From Squalus acanthias (Eukaryota): a DNA stretch of 64,000 nt. The notes under the pieces were generated by a model that saw only the letters and a list, made by a program, of their open reading frames with translations, was not told the origin of the DNA and did no database searches. The stretch lies in the NCBI GenBank assembly GCA_030390025.1, contig CM059432.1, positions 37,760,001 to 37,824,000 of the forward strand, written 5' to 3'. Below, piece by piece: positions 8,660-62,099 of this stretch (positions within the stretch are counted from its first letter, which is position 1; every line of letters starts with the position of its first letter). The position numbers and the translations under genes are program-made.

Positions 8660-8920
8660 TGGCAATGTAGTGGTCATAGTATGGACAAGCGACCCAGAAG
8701 TTGGAATTCAAATGCCATGTTGTGAAATTGAATTCAATAAATCTGCTCATTTATGGACTAGGAAAAATGACCATCAAATCTGTTGGATTGTTATTGAAAG
8801 CTAATTAGTTCACTAATGTTCTTCAGGGAAGGGAGCCTGCCACCCCTACCTGATCTGAGACTCCAGACCCACAATATGTGGTTGATTCTTAATGTCCTCT
8901 GAACTGGTCTAACAAGTTAC
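8660..8920 (+). mobile_element. tRNA-derived SINE, degenerate
   Basis: Diverged homologue of the SINE at 9882 (tagtggtcatagt..ggac.., cactaatg..ttcagggaagg.., ctccagacccaca..tgtggttgattcttaa). Confidence 0.6.
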
Positions 8921-9106
8921 GATAGCAAAATACTGCGGATGCTGGAAATCCGAAATAACATCAGAAAACGCTGGAAAAACTCAGCAGGCCAGGCAGCATC
9001 CGTGGAGAGAGAAACAGAGTTAACGTTTCTTCGACCTGAAACGTTAACTCTGTTTCTCTCTCCACGGATGCTGCCTGGCCTGCTGAGTTTTTCCAGCGTT
9101 TTCTGT
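8921..9106. mobile_element. Hairpin (inverted dimer) Penelope-type insertion with 16-bp TSD
   Basis: Two inverted arms; tggtctaacaagttac at 8905-8920 and 9107-9122. Confidence 0.85.
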
Positions 9107-9129
9107 TGGTCTAACAAGTTACTCAGTTG

Positions 9130-9780
9130 TAAAGGTGGTTAAAAAGGTATATGGGATACTTGCCTTCATTAGCCGAGGCATAGAATATAAGAGCAGGGAG
9201 GTTATGATGGAGCTGTACAAAATGCTAGTTAGGCCACAGCTGGAATACTGTGTGCAGTTCTGGTCGCCACACTATAGGAAGGATGTGATTGCATTGGAGA
9301 GGGTGCAGAGGAGATTCACCAGGATGTTACCTGGGCTGGAGCGCTTTAGCTATGAAGAGAGACTGGACAGGCTGGGGTAGTTTTCCTCAGAGCAGAGAAG
9401 GCTGAGGGGGGACCTGATTGAGGTGTACAAAATTATGAGGGGCATAGATAGAAATGAACTTTTCCCCTTAGTAGAGGGGTCAATAACCAGGGGGCATAGT
9501 TTCAAGGTAAGGGGCAGGAGGTTTAGAGGGGATTTGAGGAAAAACTTTTTCACCCAGAGGGTGGTTGGAATCTGGAACTCACTGTCTGAAAGGGTGGTAG
9601 AGGCAGGAACCCTCACAACATTCAAGAAGCATTTAGATGAGCACTTGAAACGCCATAGCATACAAGGCTACGGACCAAGTGCTGGAAAATGGGATTAGAA
9701 TAGACAGGGCTTGATGGCCGGTACGGACACGAACGGCCGAAGGGCCTCTTTCTCTGCTGTATAACTCTATGACTCTATAA
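9130..9780 (+). mobile_element. CR1 LINE 3' fragment
   Basis: LVRPQLEYCVQFWSPHY and FFTQRVVGIWNSL motifs; (actctat) tail. Confidence 0.9.
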
Positions 9781-9881
9781 ACAATTGCTATGGAACATAA
9801 TTATAAGAGAAATATCAGCTGGAGTTAGCAACAACAACCCAGGCATCGGATCAGGGCAAGATTCGGAGAGTCGCAGCCTAG

Positions 9882-10450
9882 GGCATGGTAGCGTAGCGGT
9901 TATGTTACTGGACTAGTAATCCAGTAGGCCTGGACTAATAATCCAGCGACGTGAGTTCAAATCCCACCACAGGCAGCTGGGGAATTTTAATTCAGATCAT
10001 CAAATAAATCTGGAATAAAAAGTTAGTAATGGTGACCATGAAACTACCGTAAAAACCCATCTGGTTCATAGGGAAGGAAATCTGCCGTCCTTACTTGGTC
10101 TGGCCTATACGTGATTCCAGACCCACGGCAATATGGTTGAGTCTTAACTGCCCTCTGTTGTACCAAAGCACTATGACAAAGTCACTGTGAGAACACCATC
10201 ACCTGCAAGTTCCCCTCCAAGTCACACACCATCCTGTCTTGGAACTATATCACTACTCCTTCATCGTCGTTGGGTCAAAATCCTGAAACTCCCTTCCTCA
10301 CAGCACTGTGGGAGTACCTTCACCACACTGACTGCAGCAGTTCAAGAAGCCGGCTCACCACCACCACCTTCTCAAGGGCAATTAAGGATGGGCAATAAAT
10401 GCCGGCCAGTGGATGACACTCGCATCCCGTGAATGAATTTTTTTTTTTAT
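9882..10450 (+). mobile_element. tRNA-derived SINE with LINE-derived 3' part
   Basis: A-box-like tagcgtagcgg and B-box gagttcaaatccc. The 3' end ccttctcaagggcaatta.ggatgggcaataaatgc is shared with the LINE ending near 27155. Confidence 0.7.
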
Positions 10451-13400
10451 ATATCGACTCTGCAAAGTTCTCCTCACCAACATCTGGGAACTGCACAAGT
10501 TTGGGGGGGTGGTTGTTCCACAGACTAGTGAAGAAACAGCCTGACATAATTGTATTCCTATATATCATCCAACATCCCAGACTCCTCCATCACCATCCCA
10601 TGGTATATCCTGCAGTGATTCAAGGAGAAGGCTCACCATCACCTTCTCAGGGTGACTAAGGATAAGCAATAAAAATGTGACTTTCCAAAAATCACTGAAA
10701 CAAATGCTAAGAGTCTCCAAACCAAGCTACTTGGGAGTCAACACAGGTACAGTTTCCATTTGTCTGCTATGGAATGCACAGACTTTCCCCGAAGGGTCAT
10801 ACTTCACTTACCTTAAAGAACAGAGGTAGAAGTTGGCAAGAACCAAGGCTCGAGGGTCCCCAAGTCTGTGTACAGGTACTGCTGGAGGCTAACTCGCTAA
10901 AACCGTGCTGCTTACCAGCACAATAAGCTTCCCACGGCTTGTTCTCAAAAACCATCCCACGCATTAGGCCATTGGCTTTCAGGGTTCGCTGGAGCCAAGT
11001 GGGAAGAGTCCCCATGTCCAGTGATAGGCCTACTCTTCGGGTCCCAAACATTAAACCTGAATGGTTGGTCAGTCATCAACAGTGCCCAGGAGTACTGTGA
11101 ATCTACCAGGATGTGGTATCAGATTATTGAGTCTGCTATAGAGGATTGACTGAGCACTAGGGGGCAATTATAATTTAACCCGCCCAGCGGGAAACTGCCG
11201 GGATCGGATTGGACATCTGTTTTACACCCCGCCCGATTTAACTTTCCTTTGAAGTCAATCTCCCCCACCCCCACATTCTCAATTGTCAGCCTCTGTTAAC
11301 TGTTCCTGGCCAGGGGTGAGGGGGTGATACGTGGGGTTTCTTTCTCCAACTTGACCTTAAGGAAACTCCACTCCCCCCCCACCCAATCAAAGAAGATTTG
11401 GTAAAAATTCCACTGTTTGCTGCAACCAGAAAATCACAGCTTGGGAGTGCACAATGTCTCAAATTTACCCCATAGTCACTAGTTGGTCAATAGATACTGA
11501 TGAGCACCAACTTGAGCCTTAAGTACCTGTTGAAGGAGATTTGGGAATTCTCTATCAGCTGTATTCTCCACCAGGGCTCTGCTCCATTAAGGCAGAAAAT
11601 GGGAGTTATTTTGTTTTGTATGTATTTATTCTGTATTTTATTTTTAAAAAGAAGCACGTGTGGTTTTGTGCCAGCACCGGGGATGTGATACCTCAGTGTA
11701 AGGCCTTACGCAATTCATCATTATTTTTCTTTCAATTGTCTGTTGGAGTACTTTCATCTTCCCACAGCAGCTAGTCAATCTGCATATCACAGTGTATCTG
11801 ACAGTGACAATAGCTTTCCAATGATTTGTTTACATTTTATATCCTCATTAATGCCGTTGGCAAAACAGTGAGAATCCTGTAGGAACATAATACTAAGCAG
11901 GAACATTTTGAGTGAATAACCAGCACAGGAGGAATTCAGCTTCACTCCCCAGAGTCTGAAGTACAGCCCGGGCAGCATCATTCCTTTTAAAATTGTCAAT
12001 TCTTGCACATATTTGCGATGGCATCGAGTGAGCTTTTGATTGTGCTGTGCCGCACCTGAGATGGCTCCAGGCACCGACATACTTCTCATCTGGGTGAGCA
12101 AAAATTCCCCTACCCCCTCCAACTGAAAAGGGCGACAGCAGTTCTTAAAAATATCCATTTGATTTATTGAGTGAATGTGTGCAGTGACTCGTACAGTTAT
12201 TTTACAGGAGTGATTTCCCCATTGTGCTGCAACTCAAAAATCCTGCTTCCTACTCATCTTAGGGCGCGATGGGAGTGAAATTCATCGTGTGTGTGTGGGG
12301 GAGAGGGGGTGGGTAGCACAAAATGGCGGGTAGCACAAAATGGCCGATAGCATACTGGCAGCCCATTTTATACCCTGCCCAATTTTCTTTTCCATTGTGT
12401 GTAAAGCGGGTTGCCGGTGCACTATCGCCTGTTTTGTGCTACCGCCCTAGACAGATTTCACCCCCAGTGTGTGTTCTGCAGCATACTGATCTTTCCTTGC
12501 GTGTTAAGACTTTCCTTGTTAAAATTGCCCATAAAGAGACTTCATGTGAATATGTTGGCCACTGCAATACGAGAGGAAATTAAACGCCTTGATGGGAAAC
12601 TAAATTTGCTGATTTGAAATGCAGATGGCACCAACCTGCAATAAAAAAATTACTGACGTTGTGTGATTGATTCTTGCGATGCCACTTTCCTGACCAGATG
12701 GTCACGAATCAGAATCCCACGCTTTTCTTTTCTCTGCCAAATTTATGATGAGTCAGACTGCCTTGGTTAAGTCCTAAAATTGCTGGTACCAGAGCATGCC
12801 AACTGGATCCGTTCGACACATGTTGTTACGTGCCAGCATTATCTCTAGTCTGCACTCACATTGAGATTGTTTTTAAAAAAATTAAAGTAGCAGGACTTAA
12901 AGATGTCCAAACTGCCCAGTCCCAGTGGACACTGGGGGTAATTTTGACTTAGTGTAAAATGGGCGGCTGAATCGATATGGCTGATTTTGCACTTTCACCC
13001 AAAGTTCAAATGACCCCGCCCCCACTGAGGTGCTTCTCATATTGATGTTCCTTTTCCAGAGTTGTCAACTTTGGCCAAATCCGAGGTGTTGAATTTTCAT
13101 GTGCTGTGGGTCAGTTGTGCACCTCAGGCATCACCTACTGCCACAATGCATAAATAATGGTTACAAGTAGCGAGCTGCATCTGTCCAAAATGCTGTGTCC
13201 TTTCAGAAATTTACAACCACAATTTTATGCTTCTAATAACTCTTCCTAATCAGAAGACGAGAATGCTTTTATTAATGGTGCGTCTCTATTCTCTTATCCT
13301 CTCCTTTTCAGATCTGTAGTCATACTTACAGGTTGCTTTTTCATTGCTGATCTGTGGAAACACTCCGTGAATTCTCTCCGGGTTCTCCTGATTGGTCACT

Positions 13401-17124: not shown

Positions 17125-17260
17125 GCGGATGCTGGAGATCTGAAATAAAAGCAGAAAATGCTGGAAATACTCACCAAGTCAGGCAGCATCTCGACCTGAG
17201 ATGTGAACTCTGTTTTTCATTCCACGGATGCTGCTGAGTATTTCCAGCATTTCCTGTCTT
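17125..17260. mobile_element. Older, degenerate hairpin Penelope-type insertion
   Basis: gcggatgctggagatctgaaataaaagcagaaaatgctgg.. followed by the inverted ..ctgagtatttccagcattt. Confidence 0.65.
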
Positions 17261-21168: not shown

Positions 21169-21376
21169 TCTGAAACGCGAGATGAGGAAGCTGGCTCAGG
21201 AGGAGTGTGGCCTGGAAGAGCCCACCGTTGCCATGTCCTTTGTCTACTTTGAGAAGCTGGCCCTCAAAGGCAAACTGAATAAGCAAAATCGAAAACTGTG
21301 TGCCGGTGCTTGTGTTTTACTAGCAGCCAAAGTAGGCAGTGACCTACGAAAGCATGAAGTCAAGCATCTGATAGAT
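21169..21376 (+). CDS. CABLES1: CABLES1 penultimate coding exon (cyclin-like box)
   Basis: ttccacag acceptor and GAT|gtaagt donor. Translates (S)LKREMRKLAQEECGLEEPTVAMSFVYFEKLALKGKLNKQNRKLCAGACVLLAAKVGSDLRKHEVKHLID. Confidence 0.96.
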
Positions 21377-21483
21377 GTAAGTACATCAAAACAGACAGAA
21401 AGGCTTTCTCTCAATGCTGAGATTGAACACTGCAATACCTATCCACCAATACTATATTTGAAAAGTGCTGCTGTATTGACAGC

Positions 21484-21610: not shown

Positions 21611-21619
21611 CCACTTCAG

Positions 21620-40244: not shown

Positions 40245-41280
40245 AAGGTGCGGTGGTTAGACTCTCGCTTGTTGGAGATAGTCATTGTCTGGCACTTTTG
40301 TGGCGCGAATGTCACTTGCCACTTATCAGCCCAAGCCTGAATGTCAGCCAGGTCTTGCTGCATTCGGGCATGAACTGCTTCATTATCTGAGGAGTTGCGA
40401 ATGGAACTGAACACTGCAATCATCAGCGAACATCCCCACTTCTGATCTTATGATGGAGGGAAGGTCATTGATGAAGCAGCTGAAGATGGTTGGGCCTAGG
40501 ACACTGCCCTGAGGAACTCGTGCAGCGATGTCCTGGGGCTGTGATGATTAACCTCCAACAACTACAACCATCTTCCTTTGTGCTAGGTATGACTCCAGCT
40601 AGTGGAGAGATTTCCCCCTGATTCCCATTGACTTCAGTTTTACCAGGGCTCATTGATGCCACAGTCAGTCAAATGCTGCCTTGATGTCAAGGGCAGTCAC
40701 TCTCACCTCACCTCTGGAATTCATCTCTTTTGTCCATGTTTGGACCACGGCTGTAATGAGGTCTGGAGCCGAGTGGTCCTGGCGGAACCCAAACTGAGTG
40801 TCGGTGAGCAGCTTATTGGTGAGTAAGTGCCGCCTGATAGCACTGTCAATGACACCTTCCATCACTTTGCTGATGATTGAGAGTAGGCTGATGGGGCGGT
40901 AATTGGCCGGATTGGATTTGTCCTGCTTTTTATAGACAGGACATACCTGGGCAGTTTTCCACATTGTTGGGTAGATGCCAGTGTTGTAGCTGTACTGGAA
41001 CACCTTGGCTAGAGGCGCGGCTAATTCTAGAGCACAAGTCTTCAGCACGATAGCCGGGATGTTGTCAGGGCCCAGAGCCTTTGCTGTACCCAGTGCGCTC
41101 AGCCGTTTCTTGATATCACATGGAGTGAATCGAATTGACTGAAGACCGGCTTCTGTGATGGTGGGGACCTCAGGAGGAGGCCGATATGGATCATCCACTC
41201 GGCACTTCTGGCTGAAGATGTCTTTTGAACTCGCGTGCTGGGCTCCATCATCATTGAGGATAGGGATATTCATGGAGCCT
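40245..41280 (-). mobile_element. LINE RT fragment (distinct CR1/L2-clade family)
   Basis: KALGPDNIP..NYRPISLLSIISKVMEG..QFGFRQDHSAPDLIT..ALDIKAAFD, then MQQDLADIQAWADKWQVTF. Confidence 0.88.
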
Positions 41281-41434
41281 CCATTCTTGTTCGTGGCTAT
41301 TTTTTTCCAAAACCCAACTTCCTCTTTGTGAAAGTCATAGATTTGAACCCTTGACCTTTCACTGTTCTCCCATCCTCTATTTGTTTGAGTCAACCCCATA
41401 AAAGGGCTCCTCTGATCTGATTATACCAGTTTTT

Positions 41435-44400
41435 ATAGAATCATTGTGTCTGTGCCAGCCGAAAAAGAGCTATCCAGCCTAATCCCACTTTCTAGCCTTG
41501 TAGGTTACGGCACTTCAAGTGCATATCCAAGTCCTTTTTAAATACGATGAGGGTTTCTGCCTCTACCACCCTTTCAGGCAGTGTGTTCCAGACTCCCACC
41601 ACCCTCTGGCTGAAAACAATTCTCAACTCCCCTCTAATTCTTCTACCAATTACTTTAAATCTATGCCCCTTGACCAGTCCATCGATATCTTCCTGTAGTG
41701 TACAGCTTTCACTATCAACCACATGGCCAATTTTTGGATCATCTGCAAACTTCATAATCATGCCCCTTACATTGAAGTCTAAATCATTGATATATACCAC
41801 AAAAAGCAAGGAACCCAATACTGAGCCCTGCGGAACCCCACTGGAAACAGCCTTCCAGTCACAAAAACATCTGTCAACCATTACCCTTTGCTTCCTGCCA
41901 CTGAGCCAATTTTGGATTCAACTTGCCACTGTCCCTTGGATCCCATGGGGTTTTACTTTTCTGGCCAGTCTATCATGTGGGACCTTGTCAAAAGCCTTGC
42001 TAAAATCCATGTAGACTACATCAAATGCACTACCCTCATCAACCCCTTGTTACCTCCTCAAAAAATTAAATCAAGTTAGTCAGACACGACCTTCCCTTAA
42101 CAAATCCATGCTGACTTTCCTTGATTAATCCGTGCCTTTTTAAATGACGATTAATACGGTCCCTCAGAATTTTTTCCAATAATTTGCCCACCACCAAGGT
42201 TAGGCTGACTGGCCTGTGGTTTCTCAGTCTATACCTTTCTCCATACTTAAACAACGGTACAACGTTAGCAGTCCTCCAGTCCTCCGGAATCACGCCTGTA
42301 GCCAGAGAGAATTGGAAAATGATGGTCAGAGCCTCCGCTATTTCCTCCCTTGCTTCTCTTAACAGCCTGGGTTACATTTTATCTGTACCTGGCGATTTAT
42401 CTACTTTCAAAGATGCTAAACCCCTTAATATTTCCTCACTCACTATGTTTATCTCATCTAATATTTTACACACCTCGTCCTTAACTATAATGTCTGCATC
42501 ATCCCTCTCTTTTGTGAAGACAAATGCAAAGTATTCATTAAGAACTTCTTCCACCTCCACACACAGGTTAACTTTTTGGTCTCGAAAGACCCTACTCTTT
42601 CTTTAGTTATCCTCTTGTTCTTTATATATTTATAAAACATCTTTGGGGTTTTCCTTGATTTTACTTGCCAATATTTTTTCATGCCCTCTCTTTGCTTTCC
42701 TAATTTCCTTTTTAATTTCACCCCTGCACTTTCTATACTCCTCTAGGCTTTCTGCAGTATTGAGCTCTCGGTACTTGAGAAAAGCTTCCCTTTTTTTTTT
42801 AACTTATTCTTCCCTGTATGCCCCTTGACATCCAGGGGGGCTCTAGATTTGGGAGTCCACCCTTTTTCTTTGTGGGAACATATTTGCACTGAACCCTCAC
42901 TATCTACTCCTTGAATGCCTCCCACTGCTCTGACACTGATTTACCTTCAAGTAGTTGTTTCCAGTCCACTTTTGCTAAATCACATCCCAGCTTAGTAAAA
43001 TTGGCCTTTCCCTAATTGAGAACTTTTACTCCTGGTCTATCTTTGTCCTTTTCCATAACTACAGTAAATCTAACTTAATTATGATCTCTACCACCAAAAT
43101 GCTCTTCCCCGTAACTTTAAATGTGGGTGCGCGGTCCCTTTAACGGCTGTGCGGCCCATTCAAAGTTTTGTGCGTGCAAAATTTTACATTGGAAAAGCCG
43201 GTCCTGGGCTGTGCAGGACCGGCAGAGAGCTGTGTGGCCGCACAGCTTAGAGGGAACGTTGTTGATATCCCTTCCATCAGCCCAGTTTCATTCCCTAAAA
43301 CTAAGTCCAGAAGCGCCCCCTCTCTTGTTGGGCTTGCTATGTACTGGCTAAAAAGGTTAGTTGAAATCCCCAACTATTACTGCCCTCTTGTTTTTGCACT
43401 TCAGATATTTGCCTACATATTTGCTCTTCTATCTCCCTCTGACTATTTGGGGGTCTATAGTACACTCCCAGCAGTGTGATCGCCCCTTTTTGGTTCTTCC
43501 ATTCAACCCATATGGCCTCATTTGATGATCCTTCCAACATATCATCCCTCCTCACAGCTGTAATTGTTTCTTTAACCAATATTGCGATCCCTTCCCTTTT
43601 TTATCTCCCTCTTTATCTCGTCCGAAAACCCTATATCCAGGAATGTCGAGCTGCCATTCCTGCCCTACTTTAAGCCACGTGTCAGTAATAGCTATGATAT
43701 CATACTTCCATGTGTTTATCTGTGCTCTCAGCTCATCTGTCTTATTCACTAGACTCGTTGCACTGAAGTATATAGCATTAAGCACTGCCAAACCCCTTTC
43801 TTGTCTATTTTCTAGCCTTTGTTTCATCTGCCTTCCAAATTCGCCTCCTAATTTTCTGCCTTCCATTTCCAGTTTTGTTTCTCTCCCTTCTGAATCTACG
43901 CTCAGGTTCCCATCCCCCTGCCAAACTAGTTTAAACCCTCCCCAACAGCACTCGCAAACCTCCCCGCGAGGATATTGGTCCCAGCCCGGTTGAGGTGCAA
44001 CCCATTCAGCTTGTACAGGTCCCACCTCTCCCAGAATCGGTCCCAATGCCTCAGGAATCTAAAGCCCTCCCTCCTGCACCATCTCTCAAGCCATGCATTC
44101 AACTGCTCTAATCTCCTATTTCTGTACTCACTAGCTCATGGCACTAGGAGTAATCTAGAGATTACTACCTTTGAGGTCCTAGCTCCCTATAATCTACCTG
44201 CAGGACCTCATCCCTCTTTCTGCCTATGTCATTGGTACCAATATGGACCACGACCTCTGGCTGTTCGCCCTCCCCCCTCAGTATGTCCTACAACCACACA
44301 GTGACATCCTTGACCCTGGCACCAGGGAGGCAACATACCGTCCTGGAATCACGTCAGCGGCCGCAGAAACGCCTGTCTGTTCCCCTAACTATTGAATCGC

Positions 44401-44960
44401 TTATCACTATTGCTTTGCTGACCTCCTCCCTCCCCCCTGTACAGCTGAGCCACCCGTGGTGCTGTGGACTTGGCTCTGGCTGTATTCCCCAGAGGAACCA
44501 TCAACCTTACCAGGACCGGTTAGAGAACGAGATGCACTCAAGGGATTCCTGCACTAGTGGTCTGGTCCTCCTTGTCTGTCTGCTGGCCACCCATTTCCTC
44601 TCTGCCTGCACACTCTTAAGCTGCAGGGTGACCACCTCCTGAAATGTGCTATCCATGTAGCTCTCGGCCTTGCGGATGCACTGGCGACGCCAGCTTCTGC
44701 CAAAGCTCCGAAACTCGGAGCTCGAGCTCCTCCAGCAGGCGACACTTCCTGCACACGTGATTGCCCAGGACACGAGAAGCGTCCTGGTCTTCCCACATGG
44801 TACAGGATGTGCATTCGACAGGACTGAGGTGCCCTGCCATATCTTATTTATTAGACTACTAACTAAACTTCTTAGTTTAACCCTCTGCCCTAACTTAGAG
44901 AGAAAAAGACAAAGGTAATACTCACCAACCAATCACCTACCTGCTGTTCTGTGACGTCAC
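41435..44960 (-). mobile_element. Near full-length decayed CR1 LINE (ORF1 zinc finger/esterase, EN, RT with 3' internal deletion)
   Basis: VECTSCTMWE..HVCRKC, YDIIAITDTW, GVYYRPPNS, EGALLDLVLGNE, QHGFVKGRSCLTNLI and SGVPQGSVLG motifs in the expected order. Confidence 0.9.
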
Positions 44961-44984
44961 TTTGAATTTCTGCCTGTGCTTAAC

Positions 44985-45745
44985 TCAGCTCTCGTGCTCT
45001 CGCCGTGTTCTCGCCCTCTCGCCGTGCTCTCGTGCTCTCGCCGTGTTCTCGCCCTCTCGCCGTGCTCTCGGGCTCTCGCCGTGCTCTCGGGCTCTCGCCG
45101 TGCTCTCTCGCTCTCGCCGTGCTCTCTCGCTCTCGCCGTGCTCTCTCGCCGTGCTCTCTCGCTCTCTCGCCGTGCTCTCTCGCTCTCGCCGTGCTCTCTC
45201 GCTCTCGCCGTGCTCTCTCGCTCTCAGGCTCTCGCCGTGCTCTCTCGCTCTCAGGCTCTCGCCGTGCTCTCTCGCTCTCGCCGTGCTCTCTCGCTCTCGC
45301 TGTGCTCTCTCGCTCTCGCTGTGCTCTCTCGCTCTCAGGCTCTCGCCGTGCTCTCTCGCTCTCGCCGTGCTCTCTCGCTCTCGCCGTGCTCTCTCGCTCT
45401 CGCCGTGGTCTCGGGCTCTCGCCGTGCTCTCGCCGCGTTCTCTCGCTCTCGCCGTGCTCTCGCCGCGTTCTCTCGCTCTCGCCGTGCTCTCGGGCTCTCG
45501 CCGCGCTCTCTCGCTCTCGCCGTGGTCTCTCGCTCTCGCCGTGCTCTCGGACTCTCGCCGTGCTCTCGCGCTCTCGGGCTCTCGCCGCGCTCTCGGGCTC
45601 TCCCCGTGCTCTCGGGCTCTCGCCGTGCTCTCTCTCTGCTCTCGGACTCTCCCTGTGCTCTCGGGCTCTCCCTGTGCTCTCGGGCTCTCCCTGTGCTCTC
45701 GGGCTCTCGCCGTGCTCTCGGACTCTCCCTGTGCTCTCGGGCTCT
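44985..45745. repeat. GC-rich minisatellite (gctctcgccgt / gctctctcgctctc units) at the 5' end of the CR1
   Basis: Tandem ~11-19 bp variants, CpG-rich. Confidence 0.95.
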
Positions 45746-45924
45746 GCTGCTCCTTTTTTCCATTCTGGGCTCTCCTGCTCTCGTTTTGATGGAGGATCCT
45801 GCTTAGTATCATTAATTTTTCTTTTGCAGATGTTGATTGACCTGCTCTGCATTTCCAGCATCTTGTGTTTTGATGGCGAATCCCAAGGGTTTATTAGAGA
45901 CGTTCCAGGTAAAGGGAAGTGCTA

Positions 45925-48700: not shown

Positions 48701-48809
48701 CTAGAGAGAGACACCAAATTACATTATTAGTTCAAACTCAATAAACTGAGGTAAGGATAGATTGGCACCACTGGGGGTAAAAAAGTAACTCGTCTCTTTA
48801 ATGTCAGGT

Positions 48810-49165: not shown

Positions 49166-49503
49166 AAACATAGAATCATACTGCACAGAAGGAGGCCATT
49201 TGGCCTATCGTGCCTGTGCCGGCTCTTTGAAAGAGCTATCCAATTAGTCCCAATCACCCGCTCTTTCCCCATAGCCTTGCAAATTTTTCTTTTTCAAGTA
49301 TACAGTATATTCAAGTTCTTTATTTCCTTTGAAAGAATTTCAGGCAATGCTTAAACAATGCTTTGTGGCAGAGAATTCCACCTTATAACCAGCCTGTCTA
49401 ATGGTGAGCAATTCCTTCCCTCTCACGGAAGCCTTCCCGCCTGGTTATTCTTTCCACCATTTGCGGCACTTTTGTTGCCGTGGCAATCATTGCGAAGTCT
49501 TAT

Positions 49504-49710
49504 ACAAAAGCAAAATACTGCGGATGCTGGAAATCTGAAATAAAAACAGAAAATGCTGGAAATACTCAGCAGGTCAGGCAGCATCTGTGGAGAGAGAAAC
49601 AGAGTTAACGTTTCAGGTCGATGACCTTTTGTCAGTTGAAACGTTAACTCTGTTTCTCTCTCCACAGATGCTGCCTGATCTGCTGAATATTTCCAGCATT
49701 TTCTGTTTTT
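49504..49710. mobile_element. Hairpin Penelope-type insertion with 15-bp TSD
   Basis: attgcgaagtcttat at 49489-49503 and 49711-49725. Inverted arms; the minus-strand hammerhead core is mutated to CUGACAA. Confidence 0.85.
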
Positions 49711-51339
49711 ATTGCGAAGTCTTATCTTAGCCTTTCCATTTATTCCTCCAGTTCGTTCTCCTCCTTCGAACGTCTTGCCCTTTTCCAGCCCTCATGCCTC
49801 TCATTCATGATACTCATTGTTTCCTTCCTTCCCAAGTCAAATGCCAACTTCCTTCCCAAGCTGTCTGCCCTTCTCTGTTCCATCAGCTTTTGCGCCAAGG
49901 AATTTCTCACCTTTGATGATTTTAATCAAAACCTCAATTTTTCCGAGCCCTCTCCCGTCAAGGAGAAAGAAAATCGAGTGGTGTGTAAAACAGGCTGCCG
50001 ATTCGCTATCGCCCATTTTGCACAACCACCCACGACAAATTTATATCCGTAAGAGTTCTTCTACAGGAAATGATTTTTGTTATTCTACATCTTTTCCTGT
50101 CCTGTTTCAATTCAGACTGACTCAGTAACCACTGGTGCAGTCACAGCCTGTGAACTTGGGATTTTAATAACCCGCTGGCATAACTCAGGCTTGGCTTTCA
50201 ACTTGTAAGGACTGTAACAAGATTCTGGAGCTACTTTTCAGAAAAGCTGCAAGTCACTGTCAGCATCAGGGACAACAGCTTACAATCACAGAATCGTACA
50301 GCACAGGAGGAGGTCATTCGGCCCATCGTGCCTGTGCGGCTCTTTGTGAGAACTGTCCAAGTAGTCCCACTCCCCCGCTCTTTCCCCGTAACCCTGCAGA
50401 TTTATCCTTTTCAAGTCGTAGATTTTCATTCAGAATTAGCAAAATAATGATCAATCAGCACCGTACTAAACATCGAAGTCATCAGTTCTAACTTTAAATA
50501 GTAAACTTACTTTCTTGTTAATTCAACACAGTCTGTCACTAACTTACAACAGCAGCTAAATCACAGATAAATCCTTTGACCAGAACATCCACAATATAAC
50601 AAGGCGATACTGTATGTCATGAGATTACAAAATATCTTCAGCCTATCTGAATAGCATTTTGCTTGTAAAACCAAAAAGCTGATTACTCTAAACCTTCTTA
50701 CTCTAAACTGCTAAAGTAGCAACCACACATACCAATACCATATTTCAATTTAAAATGGCTAACACACAATCATATGGCTGCTTTAGTTTAGATTTTCTTA
50801 AATTCTTTAATCCAGGTAATCAAATTAATTGCTAAATTTTTAAATTTAGATTACATAAAAGATGGAGAGTTCATTGCTGGATGAAAAGCACTGCAGCATT
50901 ATGCAATACTGTAAACTGCAGAAACAAGTTCTGATCAATGGCTACTTACCATATCCTAATTAAAGGTAAACAATCTACACAGTCCTTCTTGTCCTCACCT
51001 TCCACCCACCAATTCGCATTTGACTGATCATCCTCCACCACCTCCTGCGCAATCCCACCACCAAACATATCTTTCCACCCTCCCGCCTCCACCTTTCCAC
51101 ATTCCGAAGTGTGGTATCACAGTGAGTCGTACCTCCACGAGGTCCCACCGGGCAACACCGCAGTGTTGTCTAAACGACTGGCCGAGTAACCCCGGAAATA
51201 GGCAGAGTAGGCAAACCTTCCTAACCTCTTGAAGAGTTGTTGCAAGGCCTTGAGCAGCTCAGGGAGCCTCAGGTCTGTAAGTCCTCCATCTTCAATGTGG
51301 GGAGCCGGTCTTACGAGTAGCTGTGGTTTCTTTTGAGTA

Positions 51340-52639: not shown

Positions 52640-55310
52640 CAATGTCAGAGACCTGGCTCAAAAAAGGGCAGGATTGGGTATTAAATATTCCTGGATATAA
52701 GGTGTTCAGGAAAGATAGGAGGTGGTATGGCAGTACTGGTTAAGGAGAATGTTACAGTGCTGAAGAGAGAGGATGTCCTGGAGGGGTTAAGGACAGAATC
52801 TATATGGCTAGAGTTAAGAAATAATAGAGGTGCCAGATTGAGTAGACTAGGCCTATATTCTCTAGAGTTTAGAAGAATGAGAGGTGATCTCATTGAAACA
52901 TACAAAATTCTTACAGGGCTTGACAGGGTAGATGCAGGGAGGATGTTTCCCCTGGCTGGGGAGTCTAGAACCAGGGGTCACAGTCTTAAAATAAGGGGTC
53001 GGCCATTTAGGACTGAGATGAGAAATTTCTTCATTCAGAGGGTGGTGAATCTTTGGAATTCTCTACCCCAGAGGGCTGTGGAGGCTCAGTCGTTGAGTGT
53101 ATTCAAGACAGAGATCGATAGATTTTTGAATATTAAGGGAATCAAGGGATATGGGGATAGTTCAGGAAAGTGAGATGAGGTAGAAGATCAGCCATGATCT
53201 TATTGAATGGCAGAGCAGGCTCGAAGGGCCAAATGGCCTACTCCTGCTCCTATTTCTTATGCCACTACTAGGTGTATTCTATAGGCCACCAACTAGTGGG
53301 AAAAATGGAGGAGCAAATTTGCAGAGAAATTACAGAGAAATGCAAGAACTATAGAGTAGTGATAATGAGGGACTTCAACTATCCTGATATAGACTGGGAT
53401 AGTAATACTGTAAAGGGCAGGGAGAGGGAAGAATTTCTGAAGTGTGTTCAGGAGAACTTTCTTGATCAGTACGTTTCCGGCCCAACGAGGAAGGAGGCAT
53501 TGCTGGATCTGGTTCTGGGGAATGAGGTGGGTCAAGTGGAGCAAGTGTCAGTAGGTGAACATTTAGGGAACAGTGATCATAGTATCATATTATCATAAGG
53601 TTTAGATTAGCTATGAAAAAGGACAGGGAGCAATCTAGAGTAAAAATACTTAATTGGTGGAAGGCCAATTTCAGTGGGATGAGAATGGATCTGGCCCAGA
53701 TAAATTGGAAGATTGGCAGGAAAAACTGTAGTGGAACAATGGGCTGCCTTTAAAGAGGAAATAATTCGGGTACAGTCGAGGTCCATTCCCACTAGGGGGA
53801 AAGGTAGGGCAACTAAAGTCAGAGCTCCCTGGATGACAAAAGAGAGAGAGTAAGATGAAGCAGAAAAAGAGCGTGTATGACAGATGTCAGGTCGAGAATA
53901 CATCTGAGAATCAGGCTAAATATAGAAAGTTTAGAGAAGTGAAAAAGAAAATAAGAGGGGCAAACAGAGGGTATGAGAATAGAATGGCAGCTAAAATAAA
54001 AGGTAATCCAAAAGTCTTCTATAGGCATATAAATAGTAAATGGGTAGTAAGGGGGGGGGGGGGGGGGGAGCAGATTAGGGACCAAAAAGGAAACCTACGC
54101 ATGAAGGCAGAGGGTATGGCTTAGGTACTAAATGAGTACTTTGCATCTGTCTTCAAGGATGAAGATGCTGCTATAGACAGTGAAGGAGGAGGTAGAGGAG
54201 ATACTGGATAGGATAAAAATTGATAAAGGCACGGTACTAGAAAGGCTGGCTGTACTTAAAGTTGATAAATCACCAGGAGCGGATGGGATTCATCCTAGGA
54301 TGCTGAGGGAATTGAGGGCAGAAATCACGGAGGTACTGGCCATAACCTTCCAATCCTCCTTAGAAACGGGGGTAGTGCCAGAGGACTAGAGAATTACAAA
54401 TGTTACACCCTTGTTCAAAAAGGGTGTAAAGATAAACCCAGCAACTACAGGCCAGTCAGTTTAACCTCGGTAGCGGGGAAGCTTTTAGAAACAATAATCA
54501 GAGACAAAATTAACAGTCACTGGGACAAGGGTGGATTAATTAAGGAAAGCCAGCACGGATTTGTTAAAGGCAAATCACGTTTAACCAACGTGATGAGGTA
54601 ACAGAGGGTTGATGAGGGCAATGCGGTTGACATGGTGTACATGGATTTCCAAAAGGCGTTCGACAAAGTGCCACATAATAGGCTTGCCGGCAAAGTTGAA
54701 GCCCATGGAATAAAAGGGACAGTAGCTGCATGGATGTGAAATTGGTTAAGTGACAGTAAACAGAGAATAAAACACTGGTTTGGCCTCAACTGGAGTAGTG
54801 TGTCCAATTCTGGGCACCACACTTTAGGAAGGATGTGAAGGCCTTAGAGAGGGTGCAGAAGAGATTTATGAGAATTATTCCAGGGACTTTAGTTAGTGGA
54901 TAGACTGGAGAAGCTGGGGTTGTTCTCCTTAGAGCAGAGAAGATGAGAGGAGATTTGATAGAGGTGTTCAAAATCATGAAGGGTCTGGACAGAGTAGATA
55001 GAGGGAAACTGTTCCCATTGGCAGAGGGGTCGAGAACCAGAGGACACAGATTTAAGGTGATTAGCAAAAGAACCAAAGGCGACATTTACGTAGCGAGTGG
55101 ATCTGAAATGCACTGCCTGAAAAGGGTGGTGGAGGCAGACTCAATCACGGCTTTCAAATGGGAGTTGGATAAGTACCTGAAAGAACAAAAAATTGCAGGG
55201 CTATGGGGAAAGGGCGGAGGAGTGGGACTAGTTGAGGTGCTCTTGCAGAGAGCCAGCATGGGCTCGACAAGCAAAATGACCTTTTTCCGTGTTGTAACCA
55301 TTCTATGATT
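52640..55310 (+). mobile_element. CR1 LINE ORF2 remnant with a nested CR1 3' fragment (~52835-53260) and an internal deletion
   Basis: ESIWLELRNNRGA|RLSRLGLYSLEF junction; DFNYPDIDW..LLDLVLGNE, DKSPGADGIHP and GDLIEVFKIMKG motifs. Confidence 0.88.
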
Positions 55311-56900: not shown

Positions 56901-56967
56901 GCGTACAAATACCAGCACTGACGAGCTGGGCTGAATAGCCTGTTTCTGTGCTGTGTATTCTATGCAA

Positions 56968-57100
56968 TTTCTGACGAGAGGTCATCGACCTGAAATGTTA
57001 ATCCTATGTTTCTCTCTCCAGAGATGGTACCTGACCTGATCAGTGTTTCCAGCATTTTGTTTTTATTTCAGATTTCCAGCATCTGCAGTACTTGGCTTTT
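56968..57100 (+). mobile_element. Penelope-type terminal fragment with hammerhead core
   Basis: CTGACGA-G-AGGTC-atc-GACCT-GAAA-tgtt at 56971-56999; helix I is weak. Confidence 0.7.
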
Positions 57101-57287: not shown

Positions 57288-57750
57288 TTGTGACTTAGTT
57301 GGTAGCACTCTCGTCTCTGAGTCTGACAGTTGTGGGTTCAAGTCCCGCTCCAGAGACTTGAGCACAAATATTCGAGATTGACACTCCCAGTGCAGTGCTG
57401 AGGGAGTGCTGCACTGTCTGAGGTGCCCTCTTTCTGATGAGATGTTAAACCGAGGCCCCGTCTGCCCCCTCAGGTGGACGTAAAAGATCCCATGGCACTA
57501 TTTTGAAGAAGAGCAGGGGTGTTATCACCGGTGTCCTGGCCAATATTTATCCCTCATTCAATATCACTAAAACAGATTATCTGGTCATTATCACATTCCT
57601 GATTGTGGGAGCTTGCTGTGTGCAAATTGGCTGCCGCATTTCCTACCTTACAACAGTGACTACACTTCAAAAGTACTTCATTGGCTGTAAAGCGCTTTGG
57701 GGCGATCTGAAGTAGTGAAAGGCGCTATTTAAATGCAAGTCTTTCTTTTC
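57288..57750 (+). mobile_element. Full-length DeuSINE-type (SacSINE1-like) tRNA SINE
   Basis: tRNA-like head (ttagttggtagcac..gggttcaagtccc), Deu-domain-like core (gagatgttaaaccgaggccccgtctgcc..aaagatcccatggcacta) and L2-like tail aaaggcgctatttaaatgcaagtctttc. Confidence 0.8.
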
Positions 57751-57929
57751 TTTCTCTCAGTTGCTCTCACTGGAGGTATTTATCTCACTTGCCATCACGG
57801 AGGGTATTTATTTCAGCCAATTGCCCAAGAGAATCTCTGAATGGGGCACCATCTTGAAAGTGTTTCCAAAGAGACGCACTACGTAAACGAGTTTCTGCCC
57901 GAGTGGGAAGCAAACCGGACAGGTCAGTC

Positions 57930-60775
57930 GTCAGACTTCTTGTCAGACATCCAGTACTGGATGAGCAGACATTTCCTCCAACTAAATATTGGGAAGATCG
58001 AATCCATTGTCTTCGGTCCCTGTCACAAACTCCGTTCCCTAGCCACCGACTCCATCCCTCTCCTTAGCATCTGTCTGAGGCTGAACCAGACTGTTCGCAG
58101 CCTTGGTGTCATAGTTGACCCTGAAATGAGCTTCTGACTACATATCCACACCATAATTAAGACCGCCTATTTCCACCTCTAAAGCACAACTCTGCCCCTG
58201 CCTCAGCTCATCTGCTGCTGAAACCCTCATCCATGCCTTTGTTACCTCTAGAATTGACTATTCCAATGCACTCCTGGCTGGCCTTCCACATGCTACCCTA
58301 CGTAAACTTGAGGTCATCCAAAACTCTGCTACCTGTGTCCTAACTCACACCAAGTCCCGTTCACCCATCACCCGTGCTCGATGACCTACATTGGCTCATA
58401 AGAACATAAGAAATAGGAGCAGGAGTAGGCCATTCAGCCCTTCGAGCCTGCGCCGCCATTCAACGAGATCATGGCTGATCTTCTGCCTCAACTCCATTCA
58501 CCGGCCCTATCGCCATATCTCTTGATGCCCTGACGAGTCAGAAATCTATCGACTTCTGTTTTGAATATACCCAATGACTGAGCCTCTACAACCCTCTGGG
58601 GTAGAAAAATCCAAAGATTCACCGCCCTCTGTGTGAAGAAATTTCTTCTCATCTCAGTCCTGAATGGCCTACCCTTTATCCTGAGGCTGTGGCCCCTGGT
58701 TCTAGACTCCCCAGCCAAGGGAAACATTCTCCCAGCATCCACCCTATCAAGCCCTGTAATAATTTTGTATGCTTCAATGAGATCCCCTCTCATTCTTCTG
58801 AATTCAAGAGAATACAGGTCTAGTTTACTCAATCTCTTCTCATACGACAGTCCCGCCATCCCAGGAATCAATCTCGTGAACCTTCGTTGCACTCCCTCCA
58901 TGGCAAGTATATCCTTCCTTAGGTCAGGAGACCAAAATTGTACACAGTACTCCAGGTGTGGTCTCACCAAGGCCCTATATAATTGGAGTAAGACTTCTTT
59001 ACTCCTGTACTCAAATCCTCTTGTAATGAAGGCCAGCATACCATTTGCCTTCCTAATGGGCTTGCTGCACCTGCACATTCACTTTCAGTGACTCATGTAC
59101 AAGGACACCCAGGACCCTTTGAGCATCTGCATTCCCCAATCTTTCACCATTTAGGAAATACTCTGCCTTTCTGTTTTTTCTACCAAAGTGGATAACTTCA
59201 CATTTATCCACATTATATTCCATCTGCCATGTTCTCGCCCACTCACTGAGCCTGTCGAGATCCCCTTGAAGCCTCTTCACAACTGACACTGCCACCTAGC
59301 TTTGTATCAGCAGCAAATTTGGAAATGTTACATTTAGTCCCCTCATCCAAATCATTGATATAGATTGTGAATAGCTGGGGCCCAAGCACCAATCCTTGCG
59401 GTACCCCACTAGTCACAGCCTGCCATCCTGAAAAAGACCCGTTTATCCCTACTCTTTGTTTTCTGTCTGTTAACCAATTCTCAATCCATGCTAGTATATT
59501 ACCCCCAATTCCATGTGCCCTAATTTTGTTCACCAACCTCTTGTGTGGGAGCTTATTGAAGGCCTTCTGAAAATCCAAATACACCACATCTACCGGTTCC
59601 CCTTTGTCTACTCCACTAGTTACATCCTCAAAGAACTCCAATAGGTTTGTTAAACAGGATTTCCCTTTCATAAATCCATGTTGACTCTGCCCAATCTTAC
59701 TATTAGTTTCTAAGTGCCCAGTTATTGCATTCTTTATAATAGATTCCCAACTACTGATGTGAGGCTAACAGGTCTGCAGTTCCCCATTTTCTCTCTCCCT
59801 CCTTTCTTAAATAGCGGGGTTACATTTGCTATCCTCCAATCTGCAGGAACCGTTCCAGAATCTATAGAATTTTGGAAGATGACAACCAATGCGTCCACTA
59901 TCCCAATGGCCACCTCTTTCAAAACCCTAGGATGTAGGCCATCCGGTCCTTGGGATTTATCGACTTTTAGTCCCATTAATTTTGCTAGTACTGTTTTTTT
60001 ACTAATAATTTCTTTAAGTTCCTCATTCTCGCCACACCCTTGGTTTTCTAGTATTTCTGCGATTTTTTTGTGTCTTCCTCCGTGAAGACAGAAACAAAGT
60101 ATTTATTTAATTTCTCTGCCATTTCCTCATTCCCTGTTATAAATTCTCCCGTCTCTGACTGTAAAGGACCTACATTTACCTTCGCCAGTCTTTTCCTTTT
60201 CACATACCTATAGAAGCTTTTACAATCCCTTTTTTATATTTTTCACTAGTTTGTGCTCATATTCCATTTTCCCTTTCTTTATCAATTTCTTGGTCCCCCT
60301 TTGCTGATTTCTAAAAAGATCCCAATCCTCAGGCTGACCGCTTTTTCTGGCAACTTTATAAGCTTCCTCTTTTGACTTAATACTAGTTTAATTTCTTTTG
60401 TTAGTCATGGTTGGATCACTTTTCCTTTTGGGTTTTTATGCCCTAGAGGAATATATGTTTGTTGCAAATTATGCATTATTTCCTTGAATGTTAGCCATTG
60501 TATGTCCACCTTCATACCTTTTAGTGCAGTCTTCCAATCTACCATGGCCAACTTGTCCCTCATACCCGGTTAAGCAACGTCTCGATTTTAAAATTCTCAT
60601 CCTAGTTTTCAAATCCCTCCATGGCCTCGCCCCAAGCTTTTGTTCATCTGCCCTATTTTCTTCTTATGTGGCTCGGTGTCAAATTTTGTTTGATAAACTC
60701 TCCAGTGAAGCGCCTTGGGACGTTGGGATGTTTTACTATGTTAAAGACGCTATATAAATACAAGTTGCTGTTGTT
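57930..60775 (+). mobile_element. L2 LINE fragment split by a CR1 insertion
   Basis: gacctacattggctc (to 58397) resumes as ccggttaagcaacg (~60566), compared with the uninterrupted copy at 56471-56500. Confidence 0.82.
58398..60565 (-). mobile_element. CR1 LINE ORF2 3' half
   Basis: ORFs 59734-59976, 59243-59671 and 58488-59078 with RT motifs; cataagaacataaga tail. Confidence 0.93.
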
Positions 60776-60780
60776 GGAGA

Positions 60781-60828
<48 letters not shown>

Positions 60829-61104
60829 AAGGAAGAGAGAAAACCTGCCGTCTCCCAGCCACAGGAATCTGCAGTGCTGACATCAATCATGCGTTTACTT
60901 TTCAATAAAACACTGGCCTCCAGCTGCTTCTGTCCGAAATAAACAGAGCACTAAAGATGCTAGAACAAGCAACTTTGAAATTGACATTAATGGTTTTCAT
61001 ATTTTGCTGATATAAGCAACTGCCCCTTTTAAACGTGGATGTTTTAAGCAGTGGGGACTGTAGTAGCAAATTAGAAGTGCTATATGCATGAGTTAAATAA
61101 GCAC

Positions 61105-61329
61105 GATAGCAAAATACTGCGGATGCTGGAAATCTGAAATAACAACAGAAAACGCTGGAAAAACTCAGCAGGCCAGGCAGCATCCGTGGAGAGAGAAACA
61201 GAGTTAACGTTTCAGGTCGATGACCTTTCGTCAGACTGACGAAAGGTCATCGACCTGAAACGTTAACTCTCTTTCTCTCTCCACGGATGCTGCCTGGCCT
61301 GCTGAGTTTTTCCAGCGTTTTCTGTTGTT
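61105..61329. mobile_element. Hairpin Penelope-type insertion with 14-bp TSD and back-to-back hammerhead cores
   Basis: agttaaataagcac at 61091-61104 and 61330-61343; palindrome centre tcag-a-ctga at 61235. Confidence 0.9.
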
Positions 61330-62099
61330 AGTTAAATAAGCACATTTGTTCTAAGAGGTTTGGTAAAACTTCACTAGATTCCCTTTAACTGTCCTTAATG
61401 GTGTTACTGCTTTCTGCTAAAAATACTGTGCCATTTTCATGAATTCATTCAAAGACAATATAATAAAGTGGTGAAAATTCTGGTAGATACTCCTCCAATT
61501 TTTACTGCAAGCAAAACATATTTTCGAAGAGTAAGAAAGCGTGCAATGGACAATATATAAATGGCATTTCTGAACTGCTTTGGAATCCAACCCAATAGCA
61601 AGCATTTTTTAAACTGCCAGTTCAGCATTTATATTACACAGTCGTTGTATGATTGATTACATCTCACAAATCTGATACAAATAAGAAGAGATTTAAATTT
61701 CACAAGCAGAACAACATTTTTATCTCCATTGAAAATTTGGAAAGCTTTTTTTGGTAGTTTTATATCTAGTATTTACTGGTTAAGAATGTATGGTTCCCCC
61801 ACAAACTGGCATCAAAATCTTGCCTTTTTATTGTCTATAACTCTGCAACTAACATTTTGCCTGCTTTGAGGAAACTAAAACACGATAATCTGTAGAAGGT
61901 CCCTAACCTTTAGAGGATGCCAATGAAATACACGTAAAGCTAGTTCTGCATGCTGCACTGCTTTTCATGTGAAGCAATACCTGCTCACTACTAGCAGTAC
62001 AAAAACACTATTGTTTGCAAAGACTTAGAAAATGGTGCTAAGTTCCATCTTGCCCCAACATGTTTTTATTCAGACAAGTAATCAAGCTCCCTCAACTAC

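What the first reader, a model, noticed from the sequence alone, without database searches (positions are those of the whole stretch)
8905..61343. Family of ~200-bp hairpin insertions built from two inverted hammerhead-bearing Penelope ends, each with a 14-16 bp TSD
Seen: independent insertions at 8921-9106 (TSD 16 bp), 49504-49710 (15 bp) and 61105-61329 (14 bp), plus a decayed one at ~17125-17260. In each, one arm carries an extra ~35-40 nt (..gcaaaatactgcggatgctggaaatc.gaaata) that the other arm lacks. The inversion point differs between copies but falls in or beside the hammerhead motif in the three clear copies. Established: Penelope-like elements carry minimal type I hammerheads in their pLTRs, have a short 3' tail extension and often show inverted truncated pLTRs. 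Inference: these are minimal PLE-mobilised products whose inversion is created at each insertion, near the ribozyme. They would look like MITEs or pre-miRNAs to annotation tools.
Basis: partly seen in the sequence, partly recalled or inferred. Interest (0 to 1): 0.72.

Follow-up and report, generated by a model that had tools for sequence, protein, structure and literature searches.

The report
Back-to-back Penelope retroelement stubs
These small hairpins are real leftovers of a known kind of jumping gene (a Penelope-like retroelement) pasted in as two back-to-back stubs, and their centres sit near its hammerhead ribozyme probably because the copied RNA begins there, not because the ribozyme cuts there.

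Summary
Observation confirmed. Three hairpins have exact 16, 15 and 14 bp TSDs, one arm 36-40 nt longer (the 'tail') and four different centres, counting the decayed copy. The pattern (head-to-head inverted end, tail, TSD, minimal hammerhead) is published for Penelope-like elements, and this scan reported it before on other shark-like DNA. A physical link to an RT/GIY-YIG gene was not shown here, because no genome is held. Corrections: no hairpin keeps a complete hammerhead, and 7 of 8 arm ends lie 8-30 nt upstream of the predicted cut, none at it, so the templates were uncleaved. In public contigs of two organisms many copies stop at the first base of hammerhead helix I, an initiator-like site, and the commonest next letter is an extra G, as a copied cap would leave. 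Best model: both nicked strands prime reverse transcription at two internal sites 36 nt apart, both cDNAs run at most about 130 nt to the RNA 5' end, and repair joins them. A new member of a known kind, with a testable mechanistic lead.

The parts
8905..8920 (.). Copy A left TSD (16 bp)
   Evidence: exact repeat of 9107-9122
8921..8956 (-). Copy A tail (reference 8258-8293), absent from the other arm
8957..9029 (-). Copy A tailed arm; 5' end at reference 8366 (only the GAAA-to-cut half of the hammerhead core)
9031..9106 (+). Copy A tail-less arm, reference 8373 to 8298; one extra base (9030) at the joint
9107..9122 (.). Copy A right TSD
49489..49503 (.). Copy B left TSD (15 bp)
49504..49635 (-). 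Copy B tail (49504-49541) plus tailed arm, older subfamily; 5' end at reference 8387; G8 of the core is mutated
49637..49710 (+). Copy B tail-less arm, reference 8367 to 8294; one extra base (49636) at the joint
49711..49725 (.). Copy B right TSD; its first 3 bases equal the template's next 3
61091..61104 (.). Copy C left TSD (14 bp)
61105..61235 (-). Copy C tail (61105-61140) plus tailed arm; 5' end at reference 8388; intact core (C3 at 61234, predicted cut after 61206), helix I 5' strand lost
61236..61329 (+). Copy C tail-less arm, reference 8387 to 8294; intact core (C3 at 61236, predicted cut after 61264), no helix I; differs from the other arm at reference 8352, a common family allele
61330..61343 (.). 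Copy C right TSD
17125..17260 (.). Copy D, decayed hairpin: tailed arm to reference 8338, tail-less arm from 8373, 1 base shared at the joint; no TSD found
8258..8442 (-). Solo (non-inverted) tailed copy of the young subfamily, used as reference; runs 51 nt upstream of helix I; imperfect 12-13 bp TSD at 8245-8257/8439-8450
8355..8391 (-). Complete minimal type I hammerhead motif in the solo copy: helix I 4 bp, one extra base after A9, helix II 5 bp, palindromic helix III stub, predicted cut between 8359 and 8358
   Evidence: features as in PMC4209133
8387..8393 (-). Site where many genomic copies end (8390/8391): first base of helix I; fits both an initiator consensus and a splice-acceptor AG (consensus motifs recalled)
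   Evidence: table 7
56965..57098 (+). Old solo tailed copy; similarity ends at about reference 8390-8393; no TSD found
2792..2887 (-). Very old solo copy, reference about 8283-8389
45827..45887 (+). Degenerate fragment of the same arm

Best explanation
Each hairpin is one abortive insertion of a Penelope-like element (PLE), built on the spot from two short cDNAs. Steps: (1) the PLE protein nicks both strands of an AT-rich target about 14-16 bp apart (TSD shown here; two-strand cutting and extension shown in vitro for the anole PLE); (2) each 3' end primes reverse transcription inside the RNA, one at the far start site (arm with tail) and one about 36 nt nearer (arm without tail) (tail shown here; tail = span between two RT starts shown for the anole PLE); (3) the templates are uncleaved RNAs (shown: 7 of 8 arms include bases upstream of the cut); (4) on RNAs whose 5' end is at helix I only about 100-135 nt of template exist, so both cDNAs end in or beside the hammerhead (inferred from the 8390/8391 end cluster); (5) the two cDNA ends are trimmed and joined with 0-1 base shared or added, giving a different centre each time (junctions shown; timing inferred). 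Solo copies are the one-sided outcome. The hairpins are dead ends: no complete ribozyme, and no sign that they move as a unit.
For: Exact, variable 14-16 bp TSDs. Tail 36-40 nt; tail-less ends at 8294, 8294, 8298, sharing 1-3 bases with the TSD (for B and C; A read by eye). Two 3'-end classes, 8258/8261 and about 8289-8291, joined to diverse flanks in contigs. In copies A and D each arm holds template bases the other lacks (tail on one side, 7 and 35 more 5' bases on the other), which snap-back on one cDNA cannot give. The arms of copy C differ only at 8352, where the second base is a common family allele (about 1.5M of 6.55M summed depth in run X1), as if from two source RNAs. Ends behind 8390 and 8391: 196 and 161 contigs in X1, 168 and 153 in X6, agreement 0.33-0.36, first consensus letter C on the + strand (extra G on the RNA) in 4 of 4 rows. 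In translated relatives, 13 of 27 keep the residue encoded by 8390-8388 and only 3 of 27 also keep the next one upstream (p = 2e-6 for the first count). PMC11167929: internal RT start at two sites, both strands cut and extended, predicted dimer, hammerhead cleavage not needed. PMC11702581: extra G at full-length L1 junctions; twin priming keeps 12-18 bp TSDs.
Against: No link to an RT/GIY-YIG ORF was obtained. No genome-wide distribution of centres: only 15 of 37 joints and 24 of 870 loose-end rows were shown, and contigs break or collapse in hairpins. All four centres could also come from a symmetric palindrome ending at 8391 by later central deletion (43, 28, 7 and about 71 bases). The extra G is a plurality letter only: p = 0.06-0.16 per row on window composition, below 1e-5 on a 70% AT background, and X1 and X6 may share insertions. 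Among 10 translated relatives ending at that residue, none has the Arg/Gly that an extra G before 8391 would give. Many copies run past 8391 (solo 8258-8442; shared continuations behind 8393 and 8442). In Drosophila Penelope this position is a splice acceptor, with the start site about 120 nt upstream. Allele discordance was seen in 1 of 3 hairpins, in a GA-rich tract where recurrent mutation is possible.
Confidence: 0.66

Rival explanations
1. PLE insertion makes a symmetric fold-back at each event (self-priming or cDNA snap-back from a single template), and the varied centres arise afterwards by deletion at the unstable palindrome centre.
For: Self-priming was proposed for head-to-head PLE palindromes (PMC3846280). 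Snap-back after full-length cDNA is seen with R2 proteins (PMC11371274). Copy C is only 7 bases short of a symmetric palindrome ending at 8391, and copy B fits snap-back geometry. Palindromes can extrude from their centre (PMC7999016 passages); centre-trimming in vertebrates is recalled, not read.
Against: Snap-back alone cannot give A or D without a second deletion step. It does not explain why the second arm stops at the second RT start (8294 twice) with target microhomology. The arms of C differ at a family allele. A is young (1 mismatch) yet would have lost 43 bases.
Confidence: 0.17
2. A non-autonomous mini-element whose RNA is already a hairpin is transcribed from a few master loci and pasted as a unit by the PLE machinery.
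For: Non-autonomous PLE derivatives exist (PMC8557442 section 10; retrozyme preprint). Both arms of a copy belong to the same subfamily. A fixed 5' end at 8390/8391 would fit a short dedicated transcript.
Against: 4 of 4 centres in the window differ, even between the 98%-identical copies A and C. The opposite-strand joints shown vary and none dominates (partial list). Solo and longer copies share the same 3' ends. RT would have to read through a duplex of 70-100 bp.
Confidence: 0.08
3. Hammerhead cleavage defines the template end, and so the inversion point.
For: Centres lie within about 30 nt of the predicted cut. The source motif is a well-formed minimal hammerhead. Head-to-tail copies that could allow dimeric folding occur in contigs.
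Against: 0 of 8 arm ends at 8358; 7 of 8 include 8-30 nt upstream of the cut. No end cluster at the cut among the 24 rows shown (846 hidden). In the anole PLE, ribozyme mutants insert normally and no RNA reads end at the cut.
Confidence: 0.04
4. A DNA-transposon MITE with long terminal inverted repeats.
For: About 200 bp, non-coding, inverted arms, TSD, very abundant (31,813-58,184 contigs laid per DNA run).
Against: Ends are asymmetric by 36-40 nt; TSDs are long and variable; centres differ; single-armed copies with the same ends exist; the arm continues into longer shared upstream sequence and carries a hammerhead motif.
Confidence: 0.02

Closest known systems
Canonical EN+ Penelope-like element insertions with inverted pLTR and tail (Arkhipova et al. 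2013, PMC3846280, main text read; Craig et al. 2021, PMC8557442, passages and section 10 read)
   Same: Head-to-head inverted 5'-truncated end, 30-40 bp tail at one end only, TSD, variable inverted junction.
   Different: Here both halves are only 67-133 nt and no ORF is included; TSDs are 14-16 bp against 8-10 bp in Adineta. That paper favours self-priming on an antisense template, while the junctions here fit two cDNAs better.
PAc, Poseidon-type PLE of Anolis carolinensis (Frangieh et al. 2024, PMC11167929; main text and methods read, supplements 1-3 opened with little text, GenBank supplement unreadable)
   Same: Same minimal core ending in a palindromic stub; internal RT start downstream of the hammerhead (85-92 nt after the cut there; 65 and 101 nt here); tail between two start sites; uncleaved RNA as template.
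   Different: By eye, no clear sequence likeness outside the core, so the clade is not assigned. The text read does not discuss ORF-less hairpin stubs or a 5' end at helix I.
Minimal hammerheads of metazoan PLEs (Cervera and De la Pena 2014, PMC4209133, main text read)
   Same: Helix I 4 bp, extra base between positions 9 and 10.1, palindromic 15.2-16.2; the paper already notes dual motifs 100-700 bp apart on opposite strands as truncated PLEs.
   Different: Pair 10.1-11.1 is A-U here, not the conserved G-C; helix II is 5 bp; inside the hairpins the motif is incomplete.
L1 twin-priming 5' inversions and cap-derived extra G (PMC11702581, passages read)
   Same: Two RT events from the two nicked ends, TSD of 12-18 bp kept, end-joining at the inversion junction, extra G at full-length 5' ends.
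   Different: In L1 the second primer lands upstream of the first cDNA, giving non-overlapping pieces; here both start within 36 nt of each other and copy the same stretch, giving a palindrome.
Non-LTR retrozymes (bioRxiv 10.64898/2026.07.22.740005, first part and passages read)
   Same: Short, non-coding, PLE-related, type I hammerhead.
   Different: Retrozymes are head-to-tail arrays with a complete ribozyme in each unit; these are head-to-head pairs with broken ribozymes.

Membership tests
Penelope-like element (EN+) | End sequence physically attached to an ORF with PLE-type RT and GIY-YIG endonuclease | tested here: inconclusive
   No genome held. No GIY-YIG family in 151 of the 189 window frames of 75+ aa scanned. 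The arm's open frame found no RT/GIY-YIG protein (0 of 5 candidates; 0 of 56). No window copy is long enough to reach an ORF.
Penelope-like element (EN+) | Minimal type I hammerhead in the terminal repeat | tested here: met
   Complete motif in the solo copy 8355-8391; 0 with helix I in 100 shuffles. Rfam has no hammerhead hit at E<=1.
Penelope-like element (EN+) | [quoted passage not shown] | tested here: met
   36, 38, 40 nt; two 3'-end classes in contigs.
Penelope-like element (EN+) | Inverted 5'-truncated copy adjoining head-to-head, whole unit flanked by a TSD | tested here: met
Penelope-like element (EN+) | 5'-truncated ends of a longer unit; head-to-tail partial tandems | tested here: met
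   Shared continuations behind 8393 (315-418 contigs in three DNA runs) and 8442 (24 in X1); go-back joints such as 8389 to 8262 and 8393 to 8289.
Minimal PLE hammerhead | Conserved G10.1-C11.1 pair | tested here: not met
   A-U in all three cores found.
Minimal PLE hammerhead | Self-cleavage (dimeric or protein-assisted) | not testable with these tools
   Needs an in vitro assay; single-strand folding does not favour the active fold.
MITE (DNA transposon) | Symmetric terminal inverted repeats at both ends | tested here: not met
   36-40 nt unpaired tail at one end.
MITE (DNA transposon) | Short fixed-length TSD | tested here: not met
   16, 15, 14 bp.
MITE (DNA transposon) | Copies share one internal sequence | tested here: inconclusive
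   4 of 4 centres differ in the window; genome-wide only 15 of 37 joints shown.
Non-LTR retrozyme | Head-to-tail units each with a complete hammerhead | tested here: not met
   Window copies are head-to-head or solo; hairpins lack complete motifs.
Known microRNA precursor families | Rfam gathering score reached | tested here: not met
   Best 44.2 bits against a cut-off of 53 (mir-14); MIR1507 40 against 73.

The most novel reading that the evidence does not exclude
This PLE family starts a large share of its capped transcripts at the first base of hammerhead helix I, so the internal RT start sites lie only about 100-135 nt from the RNA 5' end. The element then mass-produces 'strong-stop-like' cDNAs that are integrated directly: singly as stubs ending in a cap-derived G, or in pairs from the two nicked strands (sometimes from two different RNAs) as hairpins. 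This would explain PLE head-to-head palindromes without antisense self-priming and without ribozyme cleavage.
Probability: 0.4. Interest if true: 0.62.

Novelty: new member of a known kind. Interest (0 to 1): 0.4.

Why it matters
As a sequence class it is ordinary for PLE-rich genomes: the inverted end, tail and opposite-strand hammerhead pairs are in print. It matters in two modest ways. First, how PLEs form head-to-head inverted repeats is stated as open in the papers read. A very abundant family of 200-bp insertions with both priming ends, both 5' ends and the TSD readable in one piece makes the rival models (two cDNAs, self-priming, ribozyme-set ends) testable by counting. Second, for annotation: such stubs score as miRNA-like hairpins, resemble MITEs, and give spurious open frames in protein collections.

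Tried and rejected
No whole genome was held, so copies could not be collected or tied to a full-length element. Pattern scans of viral, metagenome and prokaryote collections gave only chance matches limited to the pattern (checked in 23, 28, 84: 46 loci, none extended beyond 35 bases). A protein search with the arm's 43-codon open frame among longer proteins found nothing. The HMM search gave 56 hits, mostly short conceptual translations over other copies, none with RT or GIY-YIG; the AUG inside the core is not conserved (ACG/ACA in copies B and C), so a PAc-like ORF start was not established. Summed contig depth was not used as copy number. The RNA-labelled run X14 is a guess and is kept as contigs, so no claim of transcription, strand or RNA ends rests on it. 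The 8289-8291 'before' rows partly reflect the reference's minor allele at 8288, so the tail-less end in the population may lie a few bases further out. I noticed that TSD length minus the bases shared with the template is about 11 in all three copies, but three cases cannot separate a fixed stagger from primer pairing, so I dropped it. A spliced first exon as cause of the 8390/8391 ends is disfavoured because the loose ends share no sequence after the first letter, but a splice-related cause is not excluded. Joined flanks of the four young copies matched no other repeat in the window. The automatic junction for copy D was thrown off by decay and replaced. One paper was fetched by a wrong DOI and is irrelevant. 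PMC7999016 passages did not document centre-trimming in vertebrates.
Full report
Coordinates. 'Reference' positions are those of the solo copy at window 8258-8442, whose RNA-sense strand is the minus strand: low numbers are the element's 3' end, high numbers its 5' side.

1. The observation. The three clear hairpins are as described. Their TSDs are exact and 16, 15 and 14 bp long; 13 of 3000 random position pairs of like spacing reached 14 bp. Arms differ by 1 of 71, 2 of 77 and 1 of 95 bases. The tailed arm starts at reference 8258 (8256 in the older copy B). The other arm stops at 8298, 8294 and 8294, so the unpaired tail is 40, 38 and 36 nt. The first 1-3 bases of the right TSD equal the template's next bases (for B and C; A by eye). 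Copy D (17125-~17260) is a decayed hairpin without a TSD. A profile search of the window also found single-armed copies at 8258-8442, 56965-57098 and about 2792-2887 and a fragment at 45827-45887. Rfam returns only sub-threshold miRNA-like matches over the hairpins and no hammerhead family.

2. The hammerhead. A descriptor for the minimal type I motif finds three cores in 64 kb against 0.01 expected. Only the solo copy has helix I (4 bp, starting at 8391). It shows the extra base after A9 and the palindromic 15.2-16.2 pair described by Cervera and De la Pena (PMC4209133), but A-U instead of G-C at 10.1-11.1. The predicted cut is between 8359 and 8358. Copy C has two cores without helix I; A, B and D have no complete core. 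The hairpins are therefore not ribozymes, and they fold as long duplexes.

3. Where the centres lie. Arm 5' ends (tailed / tail-less) are 8366/8373 (A), 8387/8367 (B), 8388/8387 (C) and 8338/8373 (D), with 0-1 base added or shared at the joint. None is at 8358, and 7 of 8 include 8-30 nt upstream of the cut, so the templates were uncleaved. None passes 8388. Two of the three solo copies fade out at about 8389-8393; the third runs to 8442.

4. Public contigs. No genome is held. I laid contigs of 4 of the 24 runs listed on 8200-8500: three DNA-type runs of three coded organisms (31,813, 37,908 and 58,184 contigs laid) and one run guessed to be RNA (2,368). Only 24 of 870 loose-end rows and 15 of 37 joints were shown, and contigs break or collapse inside hairpins, so this is not a census. 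What was shown: (a) two classes of 3' end, at 8258/8261 and about 8289-8291, joined to diverse A-rich flanks; (b) shared sequence continuing behind 8393 (all four runs) and behind 8442 (X1, X14), so the arm is the end of a longer element with at least two subfamilies; (c) head-to-tail joints; (d) opposite-strand joints at varied places (8305 with 8376, 8386 and 8390; 8352 with 8387; 8258 with 8290 in all three DNA runs), whose orientation I inferred; (e) in X1 and X6, hundreds of contigs that leave the element behind 8390 or 8391 into long unrelated sequence (196, 161, 168 and 153 contigs; agreement 0.33-0.36), with C as first consensus letter in 4 of 4 rows. That is an extra G at the RNA 5' end. 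No row at the cut site was shown.

5. A second look at the boundary. An HMM of the arm's open frame hit 56 predicted proteins, mostly short translations across other copies; 1 of 10 looked up bears a name, from the horn shark, which with the CR1-like RT fragments around (CR1 label recalled) points to a cartilaginous fish. Of 31 hits reaching the first two profile positions, 27 have upstream residues: 13 keep Val/Ile for 8390-8388 and 3 also keep the preceding Pro. Similarity thus stops between 8388 and 8393. Caveats: an in-frame stop upstream in the older subfamily (read by eye from the consensus) biases against long copies, and none of the 10 that stop there shows the Arg/Gly an extra G before 8391 would give.

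6. What 8391 is. It is the first base of helix I. It fits the initiator consensus with A+1 at 8391, and equally a splice acceptor after a pyrimidine tract (both consensus motifs recalled). In Drosophila Penelope the intron ends at the 5' end of helix I and the start site lies 46 + 75 nt upstream, so a splice site here has precedent. A fixed spliced exon should give a shared loose-end sequence, which is not seen. An extra G marks full-length L1 junctions (PMC11702581). I put a capped start at this site at about 0.4-0.5.

7. Mechanism. For the anole PLE, purified protein cuts and extends both target strands, starts RT at two internal sites whose spacing is the tail, is predicted to be a dimer, and does not need ribozyme cleavage (PMC11167929). 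Applied here: two primers, two start sites 36 nt apart, two cDNAs limited by the RNA 5' end or stalling in helix II, then end-joining. Copies A and D need two templated syntheses or a later deletion, because each arm has bases the other lacks. The arms of C differ only at 8352, a common allele, which hints at two source RNAs; this is 1 of 3 hairpins and lies in a GA tract. The main rival is fold-back or self-priming (PMC3846280; R2 snap-back, PMC11371274) followed by trimming of the centre; it cannot be excluded from four copies. Shown: TSDs, tail, junctions, uncleaved template, end cluster. Inferred: two cDNAs, cap, timing of the asymmetry.

8. Known or new. Inverted truncated ends with a one-sided 30-40 bp tail are standard PLE anatomy, and opposite-strand hammerhead pairs from truncated PLEs were noted in 2014. 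PLE membership is met on five structural features and inconclusive on the defining ORF: 151 of 189 window frames were scanned without a GIY-YIG hit, and protein searches gave no link. MITE, retrozyme and known-miRNA tests are not met. I found no paper describing a 5' end at helix I with an extra G, or strong-stop-like PLE products, in searches. That library lacks most subscription papers and Repbase/Dfam entries, and the anole paper's GenBank supplement and figure panels could not be read, so absence is weak. Earlier notes of this scan report the same hairpins in this and other genomes and, in one case, the 5' clustering upstream of the hammerhead; I had noted the clustering (note 33) before seeing that one. 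Notes on intact PLEs in this genome were not checked and are not counted as support.

9. Verdict. Interest 0.40; the strong-stop reading would deserve about 0.62 if confirmed (probability about 0.4).

Noticed in passing
window 33510-37954: A 1.5-kb non-coding unit with TG...CA ends occurs forward (33510-35018), inverted (35082-36563) and forward again (36561-37954, lacking about 115 bp), 99.8-100% identical, with a 63-bp spacer whose edge reads like a polypurine tract on the minus strand. It looks like an LTR-type element rearranged by template switching, or an assembly artefact; no TSD was evident.
   Followed up: partly
window 21179-21379 (+): Coding exon with a Cyclin_N match; the sequence resembles the CABLES C-terminal domain (recalled label). 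The hairpins may lie in or near this host gene; gene structure not mapped.
   Followed up: partly
joint 8258-8290: Tail end joined directly to tail-less end on the opposite strand in all three DNA runs (3, 4 and 15 contigs), suggesting abutting hairpins or re-insertion at the tail boundary.
   Followed up: no
joints from 8305: Three different opposite-strand joints share one breakpoint at 8305, suggesting a preferred stop about 45 nt from the tail end.
   Followed up: no
window 4400-7400 and 44900-45800: Long CT-rich and degenerate 19-bp-period tandem arrays.
   Followed up: no
window 27589-27707, 12329-12443, 32975-33036: Other, imperfect short inverted repeats unrelated to this family, possibly old DNA-transposon relics.
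   Followed up: no
window 25800-26800, 30500-31900, 40600-42400, 52800-55100, 58400-60100: Many LINE fragments with RT or endonuclease matches, in both orientations; CR1-like by recall.
   Followed up: no
protein P0049, residues 698-728: A predicted horn shark zinc-finger protein contains a translated copy of this arm, probably a gene-model artefact.
   Followed up: partly
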